From UHGV virus genome UHGV-1676273: 12,770 bases of DNA. The stretch is one strand, 5' to 3'. The notes under the pieces are model-generated. The model did not search any database. It was not told where the DNA came from and worked only from the letters and a program-made list of their open reading frames with translations. How positions within the stretch are numbered: position 1 is the stretch's first letter; each line of letters begins with the position of its first letter. The position numbers and the translations under genes are program-made. Source of the DNA: a virus. Below are positions 2,557 through 9,241 of this stretch, one piece after another.

Positions 2557-4064
2557 TGGCAATTCTTGATGATGTGATTGGCGTTTTTTCACCAGGATGG
2601 AAAGCGGCAAGGCTGCGTTCCCGTGCGGTGATCCAGGCTTATGAGGCCGTAAAAACGACGCGGACACACAAAGCCCGGCGGGAAAACCGAACTGCCGACC
2701 AGTTAAGCCAGTACGGGGCCGTGTCGTTACGTGAGCAGGCCCGTTACCTTGATAACAACCACGATCTGGTTATTGGTGTATTTGACAAGCTGGAAGAACG
2801 GGTGGTGGGGAAAAACGGGATTATTGTCGAGCCACATCCGGTATTACGCAATGGGGCCATTGCCCGTGATCTGGCAGCGGAGATACGCACCCGATGGAGT
2901 GAATGGTCTGTCAGTCCGGAAGTCACCGGGCAGTTTACCCGTCCGATGCTGGAACGTCTGATGCTGCGTACCTGGCTGCGCGATGGTGAGGTGTTTGCCC
3001 AGATGGTTTCCGGGCGCATAAACAGCCTGACGCCTTCTGCCGGTGTTCATTTCTGGCTGGAGGCGCTCGAGCCGGACTTTATTCCCATGACCAGTGATGA
3101 GAGCAACAGGCTGAATCAGGGCGTGTTTGTTGATGACTGGGGGCGTCCCGAAAAATATCTGGTGTATAAAAGCCGTCCCGTATCCGGGCGGCAGATGGAA
3201 ACCAAAGAAGTGGATGCAGAGCGAATGCTGCATCTTAAATTTGTTCGCCGTCTGCACCAGATGCGCGGGACGTCTTTGTTGTCCGGTGTGCTGATCCGCC
3301 TCAGTGCCCTGAAAGAGTATGAAGATTCTGAGCTGACTGCAGCAAGGATCGCCGCTGCTCTGGGGATGTACATCCGGAAAGGCGACGGGCAGAGCTATGA
3401 ACCGGATGGTAATGGCAGCAAGGAGAATGAACGCGAGCTTACCATTCAGCCAGGCATTATTTACGACGATCTGAAACCCGGCGAAGAAATCGGAATGGTG
3501 AAGTCGGATCGTCCCAATCCTAACCTTGAAACTTTTCGTAATGGTCAGTTGCGTGCCGTGGCGGCGGGCAGTCGTCTGAGTTTTTCCAGTACAGCGCGCA
3601 ACTATAACGGCACTTACAGCGCCCAGCGTCAGGAGCTGGTTGAATCCACTGATGGCTACCTGATCCTGCAGGACTGGTTTATTGGTGCCGTCACCCGCCC
3701 GATGTATCGTGCCTGGCTGAAACAGGCTGTGGCATCCGGTGTTATCAGGCTACCCCGCGATCTTGACCGTTCTTCACTGTATACCGCGGTGTATTCCGGA
3801 CCGGTGATGCCGTGGATTGACCCTGTTAAGGAGGCTGAGGCCTGGAAAATCCAGATTCGTGGTGGAGCGGCGACAGAATCAGACTGGGTACGTGCAGGTG
3901 GTCGTAATCCGGATGATGTCAAACGTCGGCGCAAGGCCGAAATTGATGAAAACCGCAAGCTGGATCTGGTATTTGATACCGATCCGGCCAGTGATAAAGG
4001 AGGCAGCAGTGCCGCAACGAAACGACAGGAGCCGCAGCACACCGACGACCAGTCCGAAGAATAA
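2556..4064 (+). CDS. Portal protein (502 aa)
   Basis: About 500 aa ORF directly after the gpW-like gene, with start overlapping its stop (TGATG at 2554-2558) and GAGG 5 nt upstream. Size and position match lambda gpB; acidic C-terminus. The track start at 2484 is an upstream extension overlapping gpW and is rejected. Confidence 0.8.
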   Translation: MAILDDVIGVFSPGWKAARLRSRAVIQAYEAVKTTRTHKARRENRTADQLSQYGAVSLREQARYLDNNHDLVIGVFDKLEERVVGKNGIIVEPHPVLRNGAIARDLAAEIRTRWSEWSVSPEVTGQFTRPMLERLMLRTWLRDGEVFAQMVSGRINSLTPSAGVHFWLEALEPDFIPMTSDESNRLNQGVFVDDWGRPEKYLVYKSRPVSGRQMETKEVDAERMLHLKFVRRLHQMRGTSLLSGVLIRLSALKEYEDSELTAARIAAALGMYIRKGDGQSYEPDGNGSKENERELTIQPGIIYDDLKPGEEIGMVKSDRPNPNLETFRNGQLRAVAAGSRLSFSSTARNYNGTYSAQRQELVESTDGYLILQDWFIGAVTRPMYRAWLKQAVASGVIRLPRDLDRSSLYTAVYSGPVMPWIDPVKEAEAWKIQIRGGAATESDWVRAGGRNPDDVKRRRKAEIDENRKLDLVFDTDPASDKGGSSAATKRQEPQHTDDQSEE

Positions 4065-4077
4065 TTCCTGGTTCAGG

Positions 4078-6036
4078 ATGCAGGCTGGTCACCAGAGTGA
4101 CGCGGATATTTATATTTATGACGAGATTGGTTTCTGGGGTGTTACAGCGAAGCAGTTTATCAGTGATCTGAATGCACTGGGCGATATCACCCACATTAAT
4201 CTCCATATTAATTCACCGGGTGGCGATGTCTTTGAAGGCATCGCCATTTTTAATGCGCTGAAAACACATGGTGCGTCCATTACCGTTTATGTCGACGGTG
4301 TGGCGGCGTCAATGGCGTCGGTCATTGCGATGGTGGGAAACCCGGTCATTATGCCGGAAAACACCTTCATGATGATTCATAAACCATTTGGCTTTACGGG
4401 CGGTGATGCGGAGGACATGCGCACCTATGCCGACCTGCTCGATAAGGTTGAGGCGGTTCTGTTACCCGCTTATGCACAGAAAACCGGGAAAACCACCGAT
4501 GAAATTGCTGCCATGCTGGCGGATGAGACCTGGATGTCCGGTGCCGAATGTCTGGCACATGGATTTGCTGATCAGGTAACGCCAGCCGTTAAGGCAATGG
4601 CATGTATTCAGTCAAAACGTACAGAGGAATTTAAAAAGATGCCGGAATCCATTCGAAACATGATTACTCCGCCACGCAACAGTGCTCCACGCGTACAGGA
4701 TGATGAACCTGCAGCCTCCCGGACGCCAGTGCAGGCAGCAGCACCCGTGGTGGATGAAAACAGTATCCGTGCGCAGGTACTGGCAGAGCAAAAAGCGCGT
4801 GTAAACGGTATTAATGATCTGTTTGCCATGTTTGGCGGGCGTTATCAGACGCTGCAGGCTCAGTGTCTTGCCGATCCTGAATGTTCGCTGGAGCAGGCCC
4901 GCGAAAAGCTGTTGAACGAGATGGGGCGCGAGTCCACGCCATCCAATAAAAATACCCCGGCTCATATTTATGCCGGTAACGGTAATTTTGTGGGGGACGG
5001 GATCCGCCAGGCGCTGATGGCGCGTGCCGGATTTGAAAAAACCGAACGTGATAATGTCTACAACGGGATGACCCTGCGTGAATATGCCCGTATGTCACTG
5101 ACTGAACGGGGTATTGGGGTTTCCGGTTATAACCCGATGCAGATGGTCGGTGCGGCGTTCACACACAGTACGTCTGACTTCGGTAATATTCTGCTGGATG
5201 TTGCGAACAAAGCCATTCTGCAGGGCTGGGAAGATGCCCCTGAAACCTATGAACAGTGGACGCGGAAAGGTCAGTTGTCTGATTTTAAAATTGCCCATCG
5301 TGTGGGTATGGGGGGCTTCAGTGCTCTGCGTCAGGTGCGTGAAGGGGCGGAATATAAATACGTCACCACCGGAGATAAACAGGCCACTATTGCACTGGCG
5401 ACCTATGGCGAGCTGTTCAGTATCACCCGTCAGGCCATTATCAATGATGATCTGAATATGCTGACCGATGTCCCGATGAAGCTGGGCCGTGCGGCGAAAT
5501 CCACTATTGCCGATCTGGTTTATGCCATTCTGACGTCTAACCCGAAAATCTCCACAGATAATGTAAGTCTGTTCGATAAAGCGAAACATGCAAACGTACT
5601 GGAGAGCGCTGCAATGGACGTGGCATCGCTGGATAAAGCCCGCCAGTTGATGCGCGTTCAGAAAGAGGGGGAGCGTCATCTGAATATTCGTCCTGCGTTC
5701 GTACTGGTACCGACGGCGATGGAGTCTGTTGCTAACCAGGTCATTCGCTCCTCAAGTGTCAAGGGGGCTGACATTAACGCCGGTATTATTAACCCGGTGA
5801 AAGATTTTGCGACCGTTATTGCAGAGCCTCGTCTTGATGATAACAGCCAGACCACCTTCTACCTGGCTGCGTCAAAAGGCTCCGATACGATTGAAGTGGC
5901 TTATCTCAACGGTGTGGATACGCCATATATTGATCAGATGGAGGGCTTCAGTGTGGATGGCGTGACAACGAAAGTGCGTATTGACGCCGGTGTCGCGCCA
6001 GTTGATCACCGCGGTCTGGTGAAATGTACGGCGTAA
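4078..6036 (+). CDS. Fusion protein: N-terminal ClpP-like (S14) prohead protease domain, linker/scaffold-like segment, C-terminal major capsid domain (652 aa from ATG 4078)
   Basis: N-terminal ~180 aa carry ClpP-type catalytic motifs GVAASMASVIA (Ser) and FMMIHKPFG (His). A Pro/Ala/Gln-rich low-complexity linker follows. The C-terminal ~330 aa (YAGNGNF...PVDHRGLVKCTA) is major-capsid-like by size and position. Start chosen at the first ATG after the portal stop; the SD is weak, and the track start at 3817 would overlap the portal by 250 nt. Confidence 0.85.
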   Translation: MQAGHQSDADIYIYDEIGFWGVTAKQFISDLNALGDITHINLHINSPGGDVFEGIAIFNALKTHGASITVYVDGVAASMASVIAMVGNPVIMPENTFMMIHKPFGFTGGDAEDMRTYADLLDKVEAVLLPAYAQKTGKTTDEIAAMLADETWMSGAECLAHGFADQVTPAVKAMACIQSKRTEEFKKMPESIRNMITPPRNSAPRVQDDEPAASRTPVQAAAPVVDENSIRAQVLAEQKARVNGINDLFAMFGGRYQTLQAQCLADPECSLEQAREKLLNEMGRESTPSNKNTPAHIYAGNGNFVGDGIRQALMARAGFEKTERDNVYNGMTLREYARMSLTERGIGVSGYNPMQMVGAAFTHSTSDFGNILLDVANKAILQGWEDAPETYEQWTRKGQLSDFKIAHRVGMGGFSALRQVREGAEYKYVTTGDKQATIALATYGELFSITRQAIINDDLNMLTDVPMKLGRAAKSTIADLVYAILTSNPKISTDNVSLFDKAKHANVLESAAMDVASLDKARQLMRVQKEGERHLNIRPAFVLVPTAMESVANQVIRSSSVKGADINAGIINPVKDFATVIAEPRLDDNSQTTFYLAASKGSDTIEVAYLNGVDTPYIDQMEGFSVDGVTTKVRIDAGVAPVDHRGLVKCTA

Positions 6037-6060
6037 ACGTCGCAGACAACAACTCTGATG

Positions 6061-6079
6061 GCCCGTAAGGGCTTTTTTT
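6061..6079. terminator. Putative rho-independent terminator/attenuator downstream of the capsid gene
   Basis: GCCC-GTAA-GGGC hairpin (4-bp stem, GNRA-type loop) at 6061-6072 followed by TTTTTTT at 6073-6079, starting 25 nt after the capsid stop codon. Confidence 0.5.
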
Positions 6080-6122
6080 GTACCTGAAATCAGCCCCTGA
6101 ACGGGGCTGTGCGGAGACAGTT

Positions 6123-6446
6123 ATGGCAAAGAATTTTGTAGAAGAAGGAAAAACGGTGGCGATTGTTGCCAGTGCAGCCATCAGCAGCGGAGATCTGGTG
6201 CAGGTGGGTGATGTTTTTGCGGTAGCGCTGACCGATATTCCACAGGGTGAAACAGGCGACGGCCTGACCGAAGGTGTGTTTATGCTGCCTAAGCTGAAAA
6301 CGGATGACATGAAAACGGGTAAGAAGGTTTATCTGAAGTCCGGAAAAGTTCAGTTGACTAACAGCGGCTCTGATCCGCTGGTCGGGGTTGTCTGGGCAGA
6401 TGCCGGAACCAGTGCAGAAGAAGTGCCGGTAAAACTCAATGTCTGA
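6123..6446 (+). CDS. Small head-associated protein of unknown function (107 aa), possibly a head decoration protein
   Basis: GGAG at 6113-6116 with 6-nt spacer to ATG 6123. Gly/Val-rich, likely beta-rich protein (MAKNFVEEGKTVAIV...GVFMLPKLK...). Occupies the slot between the capsid gene and the FII-like gene. The DUF2190-like assignment is from memory and unverified. Confidence 0.6.
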   Translation: MAKNFVEEGKTVAIVASAAISSGDLVQVGDVFAVALTDIPQGETGDGLTEGVFMLPKLKTDDMKTGKKVYLKSGKVQLTNSGSDPLVGVVWADAGTSAEEVPVKLNV

Positions 6447-6714
6447 TCCCTTTTCCCGGCTGGCAGCGCGTATGGATGCGATCACGGTCAGAAAGATGGG
6501 AAAGACAGCCTCGATTAATGATGTCGATATGACTGTGATCCCGGGAGAAACACTGGCAGAGCTGAATGCTCTGTCCGGACCTGCGGTCTCTCTGGTGGTG
6601 TTTTCTTCGGGATACCGCCCACGGCGCGGGGATCGCGTTGTTTATGACGGACAACAATGGACGGTCACACGGCATGAACGTTTTAACGGTAAGCCAATGA
6701 TCTTTATTGAGTAA
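6439..6714 (+). CDS. Head-tail joining protein, gpFII-like (91 aa)
   Basis: N-terminus MSDPFSRLAARMDAI resembles lambda gpFII (MADFDNLFDAAIARADE); C-terminal RRGDRVVYDGQQWTV matches the RRGDTLTIGEENFWV region of FII. Start overlaps the preceding gene by 8 nt. Located immediately before Z. Confidence 0.75.
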   Translation: MSDPFSRLAARMDAITVRKMGKTASINDVDMTVIPGETLAELNALSGPAVSLVVFSSGYRPRRGDRVVYDGQQWTVTRHERFNGKPMIFIE

Positions 6715-7304: not shown

Positions 7305-7702
7305 ACCGACATACACAAATCCGCCAGGCCGTACTGGCACGCCTTCGGGAACAGTGTGGAGACAGCGCCACGTTTTTTGACGGGCTTCCGGCATTTGTTG
7401 ATGCGCAGGAACTGCCTGCCGTGGCGGTGTGGCTGAGTGATGCTCAGTACACCGGAAAAATGACGGATGAAGATGACTGGCAGGCTGTTCTGCATATTGC
7501 TGTCTTCATCCGGGCACAGGCACCGGATTCAGAGCTGGATATGTGGATGGAGAGCACCATTTTCCCGGCCCTGAATGATATACCGGCACTTTCCGGACTC
7601 ATCGACACCCTGATCCCTCTCGGTTTTAACTATCAACGTGATAATGAGATGGCCACCTGGGCGATGGCGGAAATCACGTACCAGATCACGTACACGAATT
7701 AA
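7301..7702 (+). CDS. U: Tail terminator protein U (133 aa)
   Basis: Strong similarity to recalled lambda gpU (ATFFDG, PAVAVWL, SELDMWMES, DIPALSGLI, ITYQITY motifs). Start chosen at ATG 7301 overlapping the Z stop (ATGA); ATG 7289 is an alternative. Confidence 0.9.
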   Translation: MNRHTQIRQAVLARLREQCGDSATFFDGLPAFVDAQELPAVAVWLSDAQYTGKMTDEDDWQAVLHIAVFIRAQAPDSELDMWMESTIFPALNDIPALSGLIDTLIPLGFNYQRDNEMATWAMAEITYQITYTN

Positions 7703-7712
7703 GGAGGTGGTA

Positions 7713-8456
7713 ATGACCACACCAAATCCACTGGCAAAAACGAAAGGTGCGGGAACGACGTTCTGGATGTACACCGGCAAGGGCGATGCGTTTGCGAACC
7801 CTTTATCGGACACTGACTGGCTGCGTCTTGCGATGGTGAAGGATCTGCAACCTGGCGAAATGACCGCTGATGCAGAAGATGACACTTATCTCGATGATGA
7901 AGATGCAGACTGGAAAACGACAACCCAGGGGCAGAAATCCGTCGGTGATACTTCGGCGACGCTGGCCTGGCGTCCGGGTGACAGCGGGCAGAAAAAACTG
8001 GTTCAGTTGTTCGACTCCGGTGAAGTCTGCGCGTTTCGTATCAAATATCCCAACGGTACTGTTGATGTTTTCCGTGGCTGGCTGAGTTCACTGGGTAAAA
8101 CCATTGCCTCAAAAGACGTGATGACCCGCACCGTGAAAATCAGCGGTGTGGGGCGTCCGTATCTGGCAGAGGAGGGCACTGAAACCGTGGGCGTTACCGG
8201 GCTGACGGTGGCACCGGCATCCGCCAGTGTCAATGTGGGAGCAACCACCACGCTGACCTTTACAGTAAAACCTGACGGAGCCAGTGACAAAGCGATCAGT
8301 GTGCATTCGACAGATCCACAGACTGCCACGGTGACCCTGAACGGGCTTGTGGCCACGGTGAAAGGCGTGAAGCAGGGCAGTGTCAGCATTGTGGGCATGA
8401 CTTCTGACGGCGATTTTGTGGCAGTGGCTACGGTGGCTGTCAGCGCCGCAGGTTAA
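7713..8456 (+). CDS. V: Major tail protein V with C-terminal Ig-like domain (247 aa)
   Basis: Close match to recalled lambda gpV: KGAGTTFWMY, ANPLSDTDW, YLDDEDADW, NGTVDVFRGW, and a C-terminal Ig-like segment (TVAPASASVNVGATTTLTF...). AAGGAGGTGG SD with 5-nt spacer before ATG 7713. The track start at 7638 is an upstream extension. Confidence 0.92.
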   Translation: MTTPNPLAKTKGAGTTFWMYTGKGDAFANPLSDTDWLRLAMVKDLQPGEMTADAEDDTYLDDEDADWKTTTQGQKSVGDTSATLAWRPGDSGQKKLVQLFDSGEVCAFRIKYPNGTVDVFRGWLSSLGKTIASKDVMTRTVKISGVGRPYLAEEGTETVGVTGLTVAPASASVNVGATTTLTFTVKPDGASDKAISVHSTDPQTATVTLNGLVATVKGVKQGSVSIVGMTSDGDFVAVATVAVSAAG

Positions 8457-8476
8457 CAGGACGATACTCATCATTT

Positions 8477-8500
8477 GCCCCGGTTATCCGGGGCTTTTTT
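8477..8500. terminator. Rho-independent terminator/attenuator between V and G
   Basis: GCCCCGG-TTAT-CCGGGGC hairpin (7-bp GC stem) at 8477-8494 followed by TTTTTT at 8495-8500, 21 nt after the V stop. Confidence 0.7.
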
Positions 8501-8516
8501 GCAGGTGGAGAACATG

Positions 8517-8903
8517 ATGTTTCTGAAACAGGGCACGTTTAATTATGAAAAACAGTCCGTGGTGCTCAGTGAGCTGTCCGGGCTGCAGAGAATTGAATAT
8601 CTGGCGTTTGTTCAGCAGCGAACGGCAAAGTTTGATGCCGGGGAGGGAGAACTGCCGGAGGCTGAACGACAGATTGCTTTTCTGCGGATGGGGATGGATA
8701 TCAATGCCTGGCTGGTTTCCCGCTCACTGTGGAATGCGGATCAGTCTAAGGATGTAGAGACGCTTTGCGCATCCGTTATTACAACATGGTCGTATGATGC
8801 CCTGGGGGCGGGGGCGGAGATGGTTCTGTCGCTGAGCGGTATGGGGGCCATTGAGAATGCCGGGGATTTGGAGCATGAGGTGCTGACGCCGGAAAAGTCC
8901 TGA
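8517..8903 (+). CDS. G: Tail assembly chaperone G (128 aa)
   Basis: N-terminus MFLKQGTF...VVLSELSGLQRIEYLAF resembles lambda gpG (MFLKTESFE...TLSELSALQRIEHLA). GGTGGAG SD with 6-nt spacer to ATG 8517 (ATG 8514 also possible). Sits directly upstream of the tape measure gene. Confidence 0.85.
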   Translation: MFLKQGTFNYEKQSVVLSELSGLQRIEYLAFVQQRTAKFDAGEGELPEAERQIAFLRMGMDINAWLVSRSLWNADQSKDVETLCASVITTWSYDALGAGAEMVLSLSGMGAIENAGDLEHEVLTPEKS

Positions 8904-9241
8904 CGCGGGAAATGCAGTTTGTCATGCGGCTTGCCCGGGAGTTCCGGCGGGCAGACTGGCGGCGGATGCTGTCGGAAATGTCGGCCACTGAGCTTGGTGA
9001 GTGGGGCGATTATTTCCGGATGCAGAGCTTCAGTGATGTGTGGATGGATGCGCAGTTTGCCTCGCTGAAGGCATTGATCGTGAGAATGGTGTCCGGCAGC
9101 AGTGATGCTGCGGTGGCTGATTTCAGCCTTTTACCGGAAGAGAACGGGATACCGGAGCGAACGGACGAAGAACTGATGCATCTTGGAGAAGGTATTTCCG
9201 GAGGTGTGCGTTATGGACCAGATAGCCAACCTGGTCATTGA
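8517..9241 (+). CDS. Tail assembly chaperone G-T fusion made by -1 programmed frameshift near 8891-8897 (about 242 aa predicted)
   Basis: The -1 frame relative to G is open only from 8879 (TGA at 8876-8878) and runs to TGA 9239-9241, overlapping the H start. This matches the conserved G/GT arrangement upstream of tape measure genes. The only slippery candidate in the 8879-8900 overlap is G_GAA_AAG at 8891-8897, one nucleotide different from lambda G_GGA_AAG. Confidence 0.7.
8891..8897 (+). other. Candidate -1 ribosomal frameshift heptamer GGAAAAG (G_GAA_AAG in the G frame)
   Basis: It lies four codons before the G stop and is the only site inside the 22-nt window where the G frame and the T frame are both open. 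A-site AAG to AAA re-pairing of tRNA-Lys is a known shift-prone event in E. coli. Confidence 0.55.

What the first reader, a model, noticed from the sequence alone, without database searches (positions are those of the whole stretch)
4078..6036. Prohead protease, scaffold-like linker and major capsid protein encoded as one polypeptide
In lambda the head core uses separate genes (C protease, Nu3 scaffold, D, E), and the C protease is of a different peptidase type. Here a ClpP-type serine protease domain (GVAASMASV / MIHKPFG motifs) is fused in frame to a low-complexity Pro/Ala/Gln linker and a capsid domain. That implies the protease is delivered into the procapsid as part of the capsid subunit and must remove itself, which has consequences for stoichiometry. 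Fusions of this kind have been reported in some enterobacterial prophages, so this is probably not new, but it is the most unusual gene in the window.
Basis: partly seen in the sequence, partly recalled or inferred. Interest (0 to 1): 0.55.

Follow-up and report, generated by a model that had tools for sequence, protein, structure and literature searches.

The report
Known protease–scaffold–capsid fusion gene
This is the already described "tripartite" head gene of Gifsy-2/mEp460-type lambdoid prophages, encoding a ClpP-like protease, a scaffold-like segment and the major capsid protein in one reading frame; it is very common in E. coli, and the only new point is that it probably also makes a shorter, protease-less product from a conserved internal start.

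Summary
The ORF is real and intact, but it most likely starts 69 nt upstream of the reported ATG. GTG 4009 follows AAGGAGG, giving 675 aa, and ATG 4078 has no ribosome-binding site.

It matches NCBIfam NF045540, [quoted passage not shown], over its full length (986 bits, cutoff 475). About 2,000 of 5,426 complete E. coli genomes carry most of the gene, 1,536 records at ≥99% identity. It is 70% identical to the Gifsy-2 "tripartite capsid gene" product (Effantin et al. 2010).

An alignment-based AlphaFold model (pLDDT 86) shows:
- a disordered linker at 224–246;
- a three-helix scaffold-like block at 250–308;
- an HK97-type capsid fold at 327–675.

Ser101 and His124 are invariant in 97 relatives.

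One addition appears to be unannotated. ATG 4639 (Met211) is a conserved in-frame start, preceded by a conserved Shine-Dalgarno-like GAGGA in unusually unstructured mRNA. An equivalent site occurs in 44 of 46 non-redundant family genes, against 3.8% of other in-frame ATGs. It would give a 465-aa scaffold–capsid protein without protease, as with lambda C/Nu3, so protease:capsid stoichiometry need not be 1:1. This is inferred, not shown.

The parts
3997..4003 (+). Shine-Dalgarno AAGGAGG for the full-length product, 5 nt before GTG 4009
   Evidence: Read directly from the sequence. The motif scan picks it out. Duplex with the 16S 3' end is -11.6 kcal/mol. The motif is conserved in close relatives.
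4009..6036 (+). Full-length gene: ClpP-like prohead protease, scaffold-like segment and major capsid protein (675 aa, 73.5 kDa; stop TAA 6034-6036). It overlaps the portal gene end (4064) by 56 nt.
   Evidence: NF045540 scores 986 bits against a cutoff of 475 over the full length, and PHROG 133 matches over the full length. PGAP calls the same start in RefSeq. The N-terminal extension is conserved. Product mass.
4078..4080 (+).
   Evidence: There is no SD-like motif upstream and the duplex is only -2.6 kcal/mol. The equivalent codon is Ile or Leu in Gifsy-2 and four other relatives.
4072..4593 (+). ClpP-like (S14-type) serine protease domain, residues ~22-195 of the 675-aa form
4309..4311 (+). 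Catalytic Ser101 codon (in GVAASM)
   Evidence: Invariant in 97 of 97 diverse relatives. It aligns with the ClpP active-site Ser motif.
4378..4380 (+). Catalytic His124 codon (in MIHKP)
   Evidence: Invariant in 97 of 97 relatives. It aligns with the MIHQP motif of ClpP.
4525..4527 (+). Glu173 codon, at the position of the third (acidic) ClpP triad residue
   Evidence: The column is Glu in 87 and Asp in 6 of 97 relatives. It aligns with the Asp of 'ERDNWMS' in S. pneumoniae ClpP. That this Asp is the catalytic one rests on my own knowledge of ClpP.
4624..4628 (+). Internal Shine-Dalgarno-like GAGGA, 10-11 nt before ATG 4639
   Evidence: Codon 206 is GAG in 24 of 24 Glu cases, whereas other conserved Glu columns are 38% GAG. 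AGGAG or AAGGA is kept where the residues change to QE, GD or KD. Columns 209-212 are the only ones of 651 where at least 95% of relatives have an SD-like tetramer upstream. Duplex is -6.0 kcal/mol, similar to the neighbouring decoration (-6.6) and portal (-7.3) gene sites.
4639..6036 (+). Predicted nested in-frame ORF from Met211: tether, scaffold-like block and capsid protein, without protease (465 aa, 50.7 kDa). Inferred, not shown.
   Evidence: The ATG is invariant in 27 relatives at 56-100% identity. The surrounding 61 nt is the 3rd least structured of 642 windows in the gene, and this holds in all 27 relatives (median 1.4th percentile). An equivalent SD plus ATG occurs in the linker of 44 of 46 non-redundant family genes. 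Gene callers elsewhere start proteins exactly here (P0166, P0225).
4678..4746 (+). Disordered Pro/Ala/Gln-rich tether, residues 224-246
   Evidence: AlphaFold pLDDT is below 50. Sequence and length are hypervariable among relatives, with 23-78 residues between P212 and R264.
4756..4932 (+). Scaffold-like three-helix block, residues 250-308 (Nu3-like or delta-domain-like)
   Evidence: AlphaFold helices at 250-273, 280-288 and 294-308 with pLDDT 88-96. No Pfam family matches. There is weak colinear similarity to the C-terminal Nu3 part of lambda C (E 0.007). The scaffold role is inferred by position and by analogy.
4933..4986 (+). Probable maturation-cleavage zone, residues 309-326 (…TPSNKNTPAHIYAGNGN…)
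   Evidence: AlphaFold disorder at 316-323, between the helical block and the capsid domain. The region is variable and carries an insertion in Gifsy-2. Cleavage here would leave a 38-39 kDa mature protein. The exact site is not determined.
4987..6033 (+). Major capsid protein domain, HK97 fold, residues 327-675
6060..6083 (+). GC hairpin followed by a T run just after the gene (terminator-like)
   Evidence: Found by the pattern scan. The mEp460 record annotates it as a rho-independent terminator.
6123..6446 (+). Partner head-decoration (cement) protein gene, 107 aa
   Evidence: Pfam Phage_cement_2 3.6e-20 and PHROG 122 'head decoration'. It is 61% identical to the Gifsy-2 homologue.

Best explanation
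This is the head-shell gene of an mEp460/cdtI/Gifsy-2-type lambdoid prophage.

Shown here:
- One reading frame, 4009-6036, encodes four segments in order: a ClpP-like serine protease with an intact Ser-His-Glu set, a disordered tether, a three-helix scaffold-like block and an HK97-fold major capsid protein.
- It sits between the portal gene and a decoration-protein gene.
- It is a full-length member of the curated family 'ClpP-like prohead protease/major capsid protein fusion protein'.

Inferred from the family and from HK97 and lambda precedent:
- The subunits assemble with the portal into a T=7 procapsid, with the protease and scaffold parts facing inward.
- The tethered protease then cuts away everything N-terminal to about residue 316-326.
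- The fragments leave and the shell of ~38-39 kDa subunits expands.
- Trimers of the neighbouring decoration protein cement the three-fold positions.

Inferred from comparative sequence evidence obtained here (about 0.65-0.7 likely): the gene is also read from a conserved internal ribosome-binding site and ATG 4639. This would give a 465-aa scaffold-capsid protein with no protease, comparable to HK97 gp5 with its delta domain. The full-length form would then act as the protease carrier. Protease dosage would be set by the ratio of the two initiation events, as with lambda C/Nu3 and herpesvirus UL26/UL26.5, rather than fixed at one protease per capsid subunit.
For: Identity:
- NF045540 986 bits against cutoff 475, full length. 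Pfam CLP_protease and Phage_capsid_4. PHROG 133.
- The protein is 100% identical to one in phage vB_EcoS-813R6. The DNA is at least 98.6% identical in 16 phage records, including mEp460, cdtI, Ayreon and Tritos.
- The PGAP fusion name appears on the listed RefSeq hits, and 2,017 of 5,426 complete E. coli genomes hold at least 80% of the gene.
- 70% identity over the full length to the Gifsy-2 gene, with the same gene order.
[quoted passage not shown] PMC8814770 lists Gifsy-2 as T=7. PMC8538268 lists a trimeric decoration protein at the three-fold axes of Gifsy-2.

Active site: Ser and His are 97/97, and the acidic residue is 93/97.

Spread: most of the best 150 representatives of the 50%-identity clusters match residues ~8-649 in one stretch at 36-60% identity.

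Internal start: as detailed under 'parts'.
Against: - No experiment on this phage is available here.
- The assembly pathway, T number, cleavage site and decoration binding are carried over from Gifsy-2 and from HK97/lambda. The Gifsy-2 paper itself could not be read, so its details rest on citing papers and on my memory of the abstract.
- The SD-like motif lies 10-11 nt from ATG 4639, at the long end of the usual range, and is only a 4-5 base match.
- The statistics are not corrected for shared ancestry.
- Met211 and Glu206 could be conserved for protein reasons.
- Two family genes, L087 and L149, lack an SD plus ATG in the linker.
- How a ClpP-like domain, normally active in heptameric rings, would work beneath hexamers and pentamers is unknown.
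Confidence: 0.85

Rival explanations
1. Only the full-length polyprotein is made, so every capsid subunit carries its own protease (1:1). The conserved GAGGA and ATG would then reflect protein-level constraint on the EEF..MP segment, or an SD-like pause site that helps the protease domain fold before the rest is translated. They would not mark an initiation site.
For: The SD-like match is short and sits 10-11 nt from the ATG. P212, next to Met211, is conserved in 91 of 97 relatives, so the segment has some protein-level role. No nested CDS is annotated in any record inspected. Nothing on an internal start in this family was found in the searchable literature.
Against: Codon 206 is GAG in 24 of 24 cases, against 38% GAG at other conserved Glu columns. 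The purine motif survives changes of the encoded residues. Distant relatives lack Met at this column and instead carry an SD plus ATG elsewhere in an otherwise hypervariable linker (20 of 22 genes below 50% identity). The mRNA here is among the least structured parts of the gene in all 27 relatives. A pause site would not need an ATG.
Confidence: 0.3
2. The long ORF is an artefact, such as a frame error or a decayed prophage gene that joins a separate protease gene to a separate capsid gene.
For: Some database entries are obvious chimeras or fragments, for example 1,027- and 1,135-aa 'fusions' with terminase or portal domains. One relative (L167) is split by a frameshift into a protease ORF and a capsid ORF.
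Against: The same uninterrupted frame is present in phage records from isolated or induced phages (mEp460, cdtI, Ayreon, Tritos, HannyBb). It is present in about 2,000 complete E. coli genomes. It is also present in more than 100 cluster representatives at only 36-60% identity. A curated HMM covers the whole length.
Confidence: 0.01
3. The N-terminal domain is a catalytically dead ClpP-like module, acting for example only as a scaffold or an adaptor for a host protease, and maturation is carried out by another enzyme.
For: The third triad position is Glu rather than the Asp of cellular ClpP. The usual heptameric ring context is unlikely under a capsid lattice, which is an inference.
Against: Ser101 and His124 are invariant in 97 of 97 relatives and the acidic position is kept in 93 of 97. 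No other protease gene lies in the head module of the window. NF045542 'head maturation protease, ClpP-related' matches at 216 bits against a cutoff of 120.
Confidence: 0.03

Closest known systems
Salmonella phage Gifsy-2 tripartite capsid gene (STM1033 region; Effantin et al. 2010, Virology 402:355)
   Same: 70% amino-acid identity over the full length, with the same protease, middle domain and capsid order. The neighbours are the same: terminase, W-like adaptor, portal overlapping the gene start, a decoration protein at 61% identity, then Z, U, V, G, T and H tail genes. The internal GAGGAG plus ATG is also present.
   Different: The tether differs in length and sequence, Gifsy-2 has an insertion in the presumed cleavage zone, and the N-terminal extension differs. 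Nothing functional distinguishes them on present evidence.
NCBIfam NF045540 'ClpP-like prohead protease/major capsid protein fusion protein' (sister model NF045541)
   Same: Full-length match well above the curated cutoff. Identical or near-identical proteins already carry this name in RefSeq.
   Different: None. The window gene is an ordinary member. The family annotation does not mention a nested product.
Phage lambda C / Nu3 / D / E head genes
   Same: The gene neighbourhood is the same (A, W, B, head-core genes, then tail genes Z, U, V, G, T, H). The protease has a ClpP/crotonase-type fold and a scaffold segment at its C-terminus. In lambda, nu3 is a nested in-frame gene within C. There is weak colinear similarity between window residues 120-324 and lambda C residues 191-425 (E 0.007). 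The protease gene overlaps the portal gene end in both.
   Different: Lambda C is a Peptidase_S49 protein rather than an S14 ClpP type. Lambda E is a separate gene of another capsid family (Phage_cap_E) with no detectable sequence similarity. The decoration protein is of another family (HDPD rather than Phage_cement_2) and lies before, not after, the capsid gene.
Phage HK97 gp4 protease and gp5 (delta domain + capsid protein)
   Same: A scaffold-like helical domain is fused to the N-terminus of an HK97-fold capsid protein and presumed to be removed by the prohead protease. The predicted 465-aa internal product would have this layout. This comparison rests on established knowledge of HK97 and on the model.
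   Different: The HK97 protease is a separate gene of the herpesvirus-like type (my own knowledge, not tested here). HK97 uses covalent cross-links rather than a decoration protein (PMC8538268).
Nested protease/scaffold genes of herpesviruses (UL26/UL26.5) and archaeal virus HFTV1 (gp17/gp17.5)
   Same: The full-length product carries the protease, and an in-frame internal start gives the more abundant scaffold. For HFTV1 this was shown by ribosome profiling (bioRxiv 10.64898/2026.09.13.751334).
   Different: In those systems the capsid protein is a separate gene. Here the nested product would include the capsid protein itself.

Membership tests
NCBIfam NF045540 ClpP-like prohead protease/major capsid protein fusion protein | Whole-protein HMM score above the curated cutoff with end-to-end coverage | tested here: met
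   985.9 bits against a cutoff of 475. Protein residues 9-651 match profile positions 2-651 of 652.
NCBIfam NF045540 ClpP-like prohead protease/major capsid protein fusion protein | Protease and capsid domains in one uninterrupted reading frame | tested here: met
   There is no stop codon between 3817 and 6034 in this frame. The same holds in relatives.
Gifsy-2-type tripartite capsid gene | N-terminal ClpP-like protease, a central domain of about 100-200 residues and a C-terminal HK97-fold capsid protein | tested here: met
   Pfam domains, AlphaFold domain map, fold matches and 70% identity to the Gifsy-2 protein.
Gifsy-2-type tripartite capsid gene | Lies in a lambdoid head module next to a trimeric decoration protein gene | tested here: met
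   Portal gene upstream and a Phage_cement_2 / PHROG 122 decoration gene downstream. The order matches Gifsy-2 and mEp460. The trimeric state was not tested.
Gifsy-2-type tripartite capsid gene | Proteolytic removal of the protease and middle domains, giving a T=7 shell of mature capsid protein | not testable with these tools
   Only a predicted disordered junction at residues 316-323. T=7 for Gifsy-2 is taken from PMC8814770.
Peptidase family S14 (ClpP) fold and active site | ClpP fold with nucleophile Ser and general-base His in the GxAASM and MIHQP motifs | tested here: met
Peptidase family S14 (ClpP) fold and active site | Asp as the third triad residue; heptameric rings; dependence on a Clp ATPase | tested here: not met
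   The aligned residue is Glu173 (87 Glu and 6 Asp of 97), not Asp. Oligomeric state and ATPase dependence could not be tested. It scores far below the cutoffs of the cellular ClpP equivalog models, for example TIGR00493 at 59.7 against 308.6. So it is ClpP-related, not a cellular ClpP.
HK97-fold major capsid proteins (Pfam Phage_capsid_4 / Mu gpT-like) | Pfam score above gathering threshold and HK97-type fold | tested here: met
Nested protease/scaffold genes (lambda C/Nu3 type) | In-frame internal start codon with its own ribosome-binding site, downstream of the protease core | tested here: met
   ATG 4639 with GAGGA 10-11 nt upstream. Columns 209-212 are the only ones of 651 with an SD-like motif upstream in at least 95% of relatives. 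Family-wide count is 44 of 46 genes against a 3.8% background. The mRNA is unstructured there. This is a sequence signature only.
Nested protease/scaffold genes (lambda C/Nu3 type) | Two protein products actually made from the one frame | not testable with these tools
   No proteomic or ribosome-profiling data are available for this phage.

The most novel reading that the evidence does not exclude
The 'tripartite fusion' is really a nested gene pair throughout its family. A conserved, unannotated internal ribosome-binding site and ATG (4639 here) would produce a protease-less scaffold-capsid protein as the main building block, and the full-length form would be a minority protease carrier. Protease dosage would then be set translationally, as in lambda C/Nu3 and herpesvirus UL26/UL26.5, with the difference that the nested product here is the capsid protein itself. 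I found no annotation of this and no paper on it. I could not read the Gifsy-2 paper, which may already discuss it.
Probability: 0.6. Interest if true: 0.45.

Novelty: already known. Interest (0 to 1): 0.25.

Why it matters
The fusion itself is textbook-adjacent: it is published for Gifsy-2, has a curated NCBI family name, and occurs in more than a third of complete E. coli genomes.

It matters in two practical ways.
- **Annotation.** Phage records label the same gene 'head maturation protease', 'preconnector protease C', 'Nu3', 'Major head protein' or 'protease/scaffold'. Automated searches for a major capsid protein can therefore miss it, as happened for Gifsy-2 in PMC8814770.
- **Assembly.** It would add a very common bacterial example to the nested protease/scaffold strategy shared by lambda, herpesviruses and an archaeal virus. 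It would also give a simple handle (SD or ATG mutations) for studying how much tethered protease a procapsid needs.

Tried and rejected
- **Single-sequence AlphaFold.** It gave an unusable model (pLDDT 40). It was replaced by a 97-sequence alignment model.
- **The Gifsy-2 paper.** It is not held in the library, so only citing papers could be quoted.
- **Literature on an internal start in this fusion family.** Five searches found nothing relevant. One hit on the same strategy in the archaeal virus HFTV1 was read.
- **Met column in the linker.** I first suspected the column that is Met in 62 of 97 sequences (aligned with Pro234 of the window protein). The window clade lacks that Met, so that position is not the start here. 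Its equivalent is Met211.
- **Other in-frame ATG, GTG or TTG codons with SD-like motifs** (4417, 5614, 5953). These show no conserved upstream motif and were dropped.
- **P0166 and P0225.** These begin exactly at the Met211 equivalent and looked like natural split genes. P0225 lies on a 1.5-kb contig cut just upstream. P0166 follows a protease ORF separated by a frameshift, with homology continuing in the other frame. This is probably a mutation or an error, so it is not independent evidence.
- **Frame-error or pseudogene artefact.** Considered and rejected (see rivals).
Full report
**Observation.** The + strand frame containing 4078-6036 is open from 3817 to the TAA at 6034-6036. From the first ATG (4078) it encodes 652 aa with the quoted motifs GVAASMASV and MIHKPFG.

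The start needs correcting. GTG 4009 lies 5 nt after a perfect AAGGAGG (3997-4003), and its SD:anti-SD duplex is -11.6 kcal/mol. ATG 4078 has no SD-like motif and scores -2.6. The 23 extra residues are conserved in relatives, with a near-invariant SW[F/Y] motif upstream of the ATG. The ATG equivalent is Ile or Leu in Gifsy-2 and four other diverged relatives. RefSeq/PGAP calls the 675-aa form. The gene is thus 4009-6036 (675 aa, 73.5 kDa) and overlaps the portal gene end by 56 nt.

**What it is.**
- Pfam finds CLP_protease (E 4.5e-36) in the N-terminal part and Phage_capsid_4 (E 8e-55, plus Mu-like_gpT) in the C-terminal part.
- NCBIfam has a curated full-length model for exactly this architecture, NF045540 'ClpP-like prohead protease/major capsid protein fusion protein'. 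It scores 986 bits against a cutoff of 475, end to end. NF045542 'head maturation protease, ClpP-related' matches the N-terminus.
- PHROG 133 matches over the full length.
- The whole window is the terminase-to-tape-measure module of an mEp460/cdtI-type lambdoid phage, at 96.5-97.9% DNA identity over about 97% of the window.
- The gene is at least 98.6% identical in 16 phage records, and the protein is 100% identical to one in vB_EcoS-813R6.
- At least 80% of the gene is present in 2,017 of 5,426 complete E. coli genomes, where PGAP already gives it the fusion name.
- It is 70% identical over the full length to the Gifsy-2 gene, which has the same neighbours. The adjacent decoration protein is 61% identical.
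- That Gifsy-2 gene is the subject of Effantin et al. [quoted passage not shown] I could not read it. [quoted passage not shown]
- The architecture is widespread well beyond enterobacteria. Most of the best 150 representatives of 50%-identity clusters match residues ~8-649 in one stretch at only 36-60% identity. 80 phage records hold a full-length relative, including Pseudomonas phage MD8 at 57%.

**Structure.** A single-sequence AlphaFold run failed (pLDDT 40). With a 97-sequence alignment (34-96% identity) the model reached pLDDT 86. The segments are:

| Residues | Feature |
|---|---|
| 1-17 | disordered |
| 22-~195 | α/β domain, followed by two short helices |
| 224-246 | disordered; the Pro/Ala/Gln stretch |
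| 250-308 | three helices, at high confidence |
| 316-323 | disordered |
| 327-675 | capsid domain |

- No close relative of the capsid part has a solved structure.
- Ser101 and His124 are invariant in 97 of 97 relatives. The position aligned with the ClpP triad Asp is Glu173 (87 Glu and 6 Asp of 97).
- The tether is hypervariable in length (23-78 residues) and in sequence.
- The helical block has no Pfam family. The window protein aligns weakly and colinearly with lambda C, from the end of its protease domain through its Nu3 part (E 0.007 for that single comparison).

**A conserved internal start.** This is new in this analysis and is inferred. In the 97-sequence alignment, one column inside the hypervariable tether is Met in 62 sequences, preceded by Glu/Gly/Lys-rich residues. 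The window clade lacks that Met but has an invariant Met211 (ATG 4639) 20-odd residues earlier. The following evidence comes from DNA of relatives fetched from IMG/VR.

1. In 27 relatives less than 95% identical to each other (56-100% identical to the window), the ATG is invariant. Codon 206 is GAG in 24 of 24 Glu cases, whereas twelve other conserved Glu columns are 38% GAG, never more than 15 of 27.
2. Where the residues differ (QE, GD, KD), the DNA still reads AGGAG or AAGGA at the same place.
3. All 651 codon columns were scanned for GGAG, GAGG or AGGA at -17 to -5. The mean occupancy is 5.5%, and only columns 209-212 reach 95% or more.
4. In 46 family genes less than 90% identical to each other, 44 have an SD-like motif before an in-frame ATG in the linker. 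This includes 20 of 22 genes below 50% identity, where the site lies at a different position inside the tether. Of all other in-frame ATGs, 35 of 933 have such a motif (Fisher p 5e-33, not corrected for shared ancestry).
5. In the window, the 61 nt around ATG 4639 fold at -2.5 kcal/mol, against a gene mean of -14.3 ± 4.4. That is the third least structured of 642 windows. In all 27 relatives the site lies in the least structured 10%, with a median at the 1.4th percentile.
6. The SD duplex energy of -6.0 is like that of the neighbouring decoration (-6.6) and portal (-7.3) genes.
7. Gene callers elsewhere have started proteins exactly at this Met (P0166, P0225). Their contexts, a truncated contig and a frameshifted copy, make this weak evidence.

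The product would be 465 aa and 50.7 kDa, consisting of the tether, the helical block and the capsid protein.

Caveats:
- The 10-11 nt SD-ATG spacing is long.
- The motif is short.
- L087 and L149 lack the signature.
- No record inspected annotates a nested CDS.
- I found no paper on it in this family.

The general strategy is well known for lambda and HSV-1, and was recently shown by ribosome profiling for the archaeal virus HFTV1.

**Mechanism.** The architecture, an intact catalytic set, family membership and gene context are shown. The following is inferred from Gifsy-2, HK97 and lambda.
- Subunits assemble on the portal into a T=7 procapsid, with the protease and helical parts inside.
- The tethered protease removes everything N-terminal to about residue 316-326.
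- A 38-39 kDa mature protein remains and the shell expands.
- The Phage_cement_2 protein encoded at 6123-6446 decorates the shell.

Inferred from the comparative evidence above, at about 0.65-0.7: most subunits come from the internal start and lack protease, so the full-length form acts as the protease carrier and dosage is set at initiation.

**Verdict.** The finding is correct and its interpretation is sound, but the feature is already known, curated and extremely common. The start coordinate and a few details need correction. The probable nested start is a modest, testable addition rather than a surprise, given the lambda and herpesvirus precedent.

Noticed in passing
window 4009-6036 and phage records: The same gene is labelled inconsistently in public phage records: 'head maturation protease', 'head-tail preconnector protease C', 'head-tail preconnector protein Nu3', 'Major head protein', 'putative protease/scaffold protein' and 'major capsid protein'. 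Several records start it at the downstream ATG (652 aa) rather than at the GTG (675 aa). PMC8814770 reports that no HK97-fold capsid protein could be retrieved automatically for Gifsy-2.
   Followed up: partly
window 6060-6083: A GC-rich hairpin followed by a run of seven T lies between the capsid gene and the decoration gene, inside what should be one late operon. The mEp460 record annotates it as a rho-independent terminator. It could lower expression of downstream genes relative to the capsid gene unless it is antiterminated.
   Followed up: no
window 6439-6714: This 91-aa gene matches Pfam PF13856 'Gifsy-2', described as 'ATP-binding sugar transporter from pro-phage', and PGAP names it 'DNA breaking-rejoining protein'. 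Its position and a weak Phage_attach hit suggest a head-tail joining protein, so both names look like misnomers.
   Followed up: no
window 8475-9241: The tail assembly chaperone pair looks like lambda G/T. The downstream ORF (ATG 8912) is in the -1 frame relative to the upstream one, which ends at TGA 8901-8903. That matches the usual programmed -1 frameshift, but the sequence just before the stop is C-GGA-AAA-G / CCG GAA AAG rather than lambda's G GGA AAG. The slippery site was not identified.
   Followed up: partly
window 7638-8456: The major tail tube protein (lambda V-like, Phage_TTP_12) carries a C-terminal Big_2 Ig-like domain.
   Followed up: no
proteins P0006, P0033, P0034, P0061, P0064, P0080: Some database entries join this protein to terminase, portal, minor-tail or DUF1983 domains in products of 750-1,135 aa. 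These are most likely assembly or gene-calling chimeras, not real larger fusions.
   Followed up: no
L167 2400-2510 (GCA_000755365.1 contig BBMQ01000056.1): A relative in which the fusion is split into a 201-aa ClpP-like ORF and a 443-aa scaffold-capsid ORF by a frameshift near the GFAD motif. Homology continues in the other frame. The downstream ORF starts at the Met211 equivalent, behind AAGGA. Whether this is a working split version, decay or a sequencing error is unknown.
   Followed up: partly
window residues 120-324 of the 675-aa protein (nt 4366-4980) vs lambda C residues 191-425: There is weak but colinear similarity (24% identity, E 0.007 in a single pairwise comparison). It runs from the end of the protease domain through the helical block and the lambda Nu3 region, e.g. 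AEQKARVNGINDLF against AAENSRIMGILNCE. This hints that the middle domain is a distant Nu3 homologue.
   Followed up: partly
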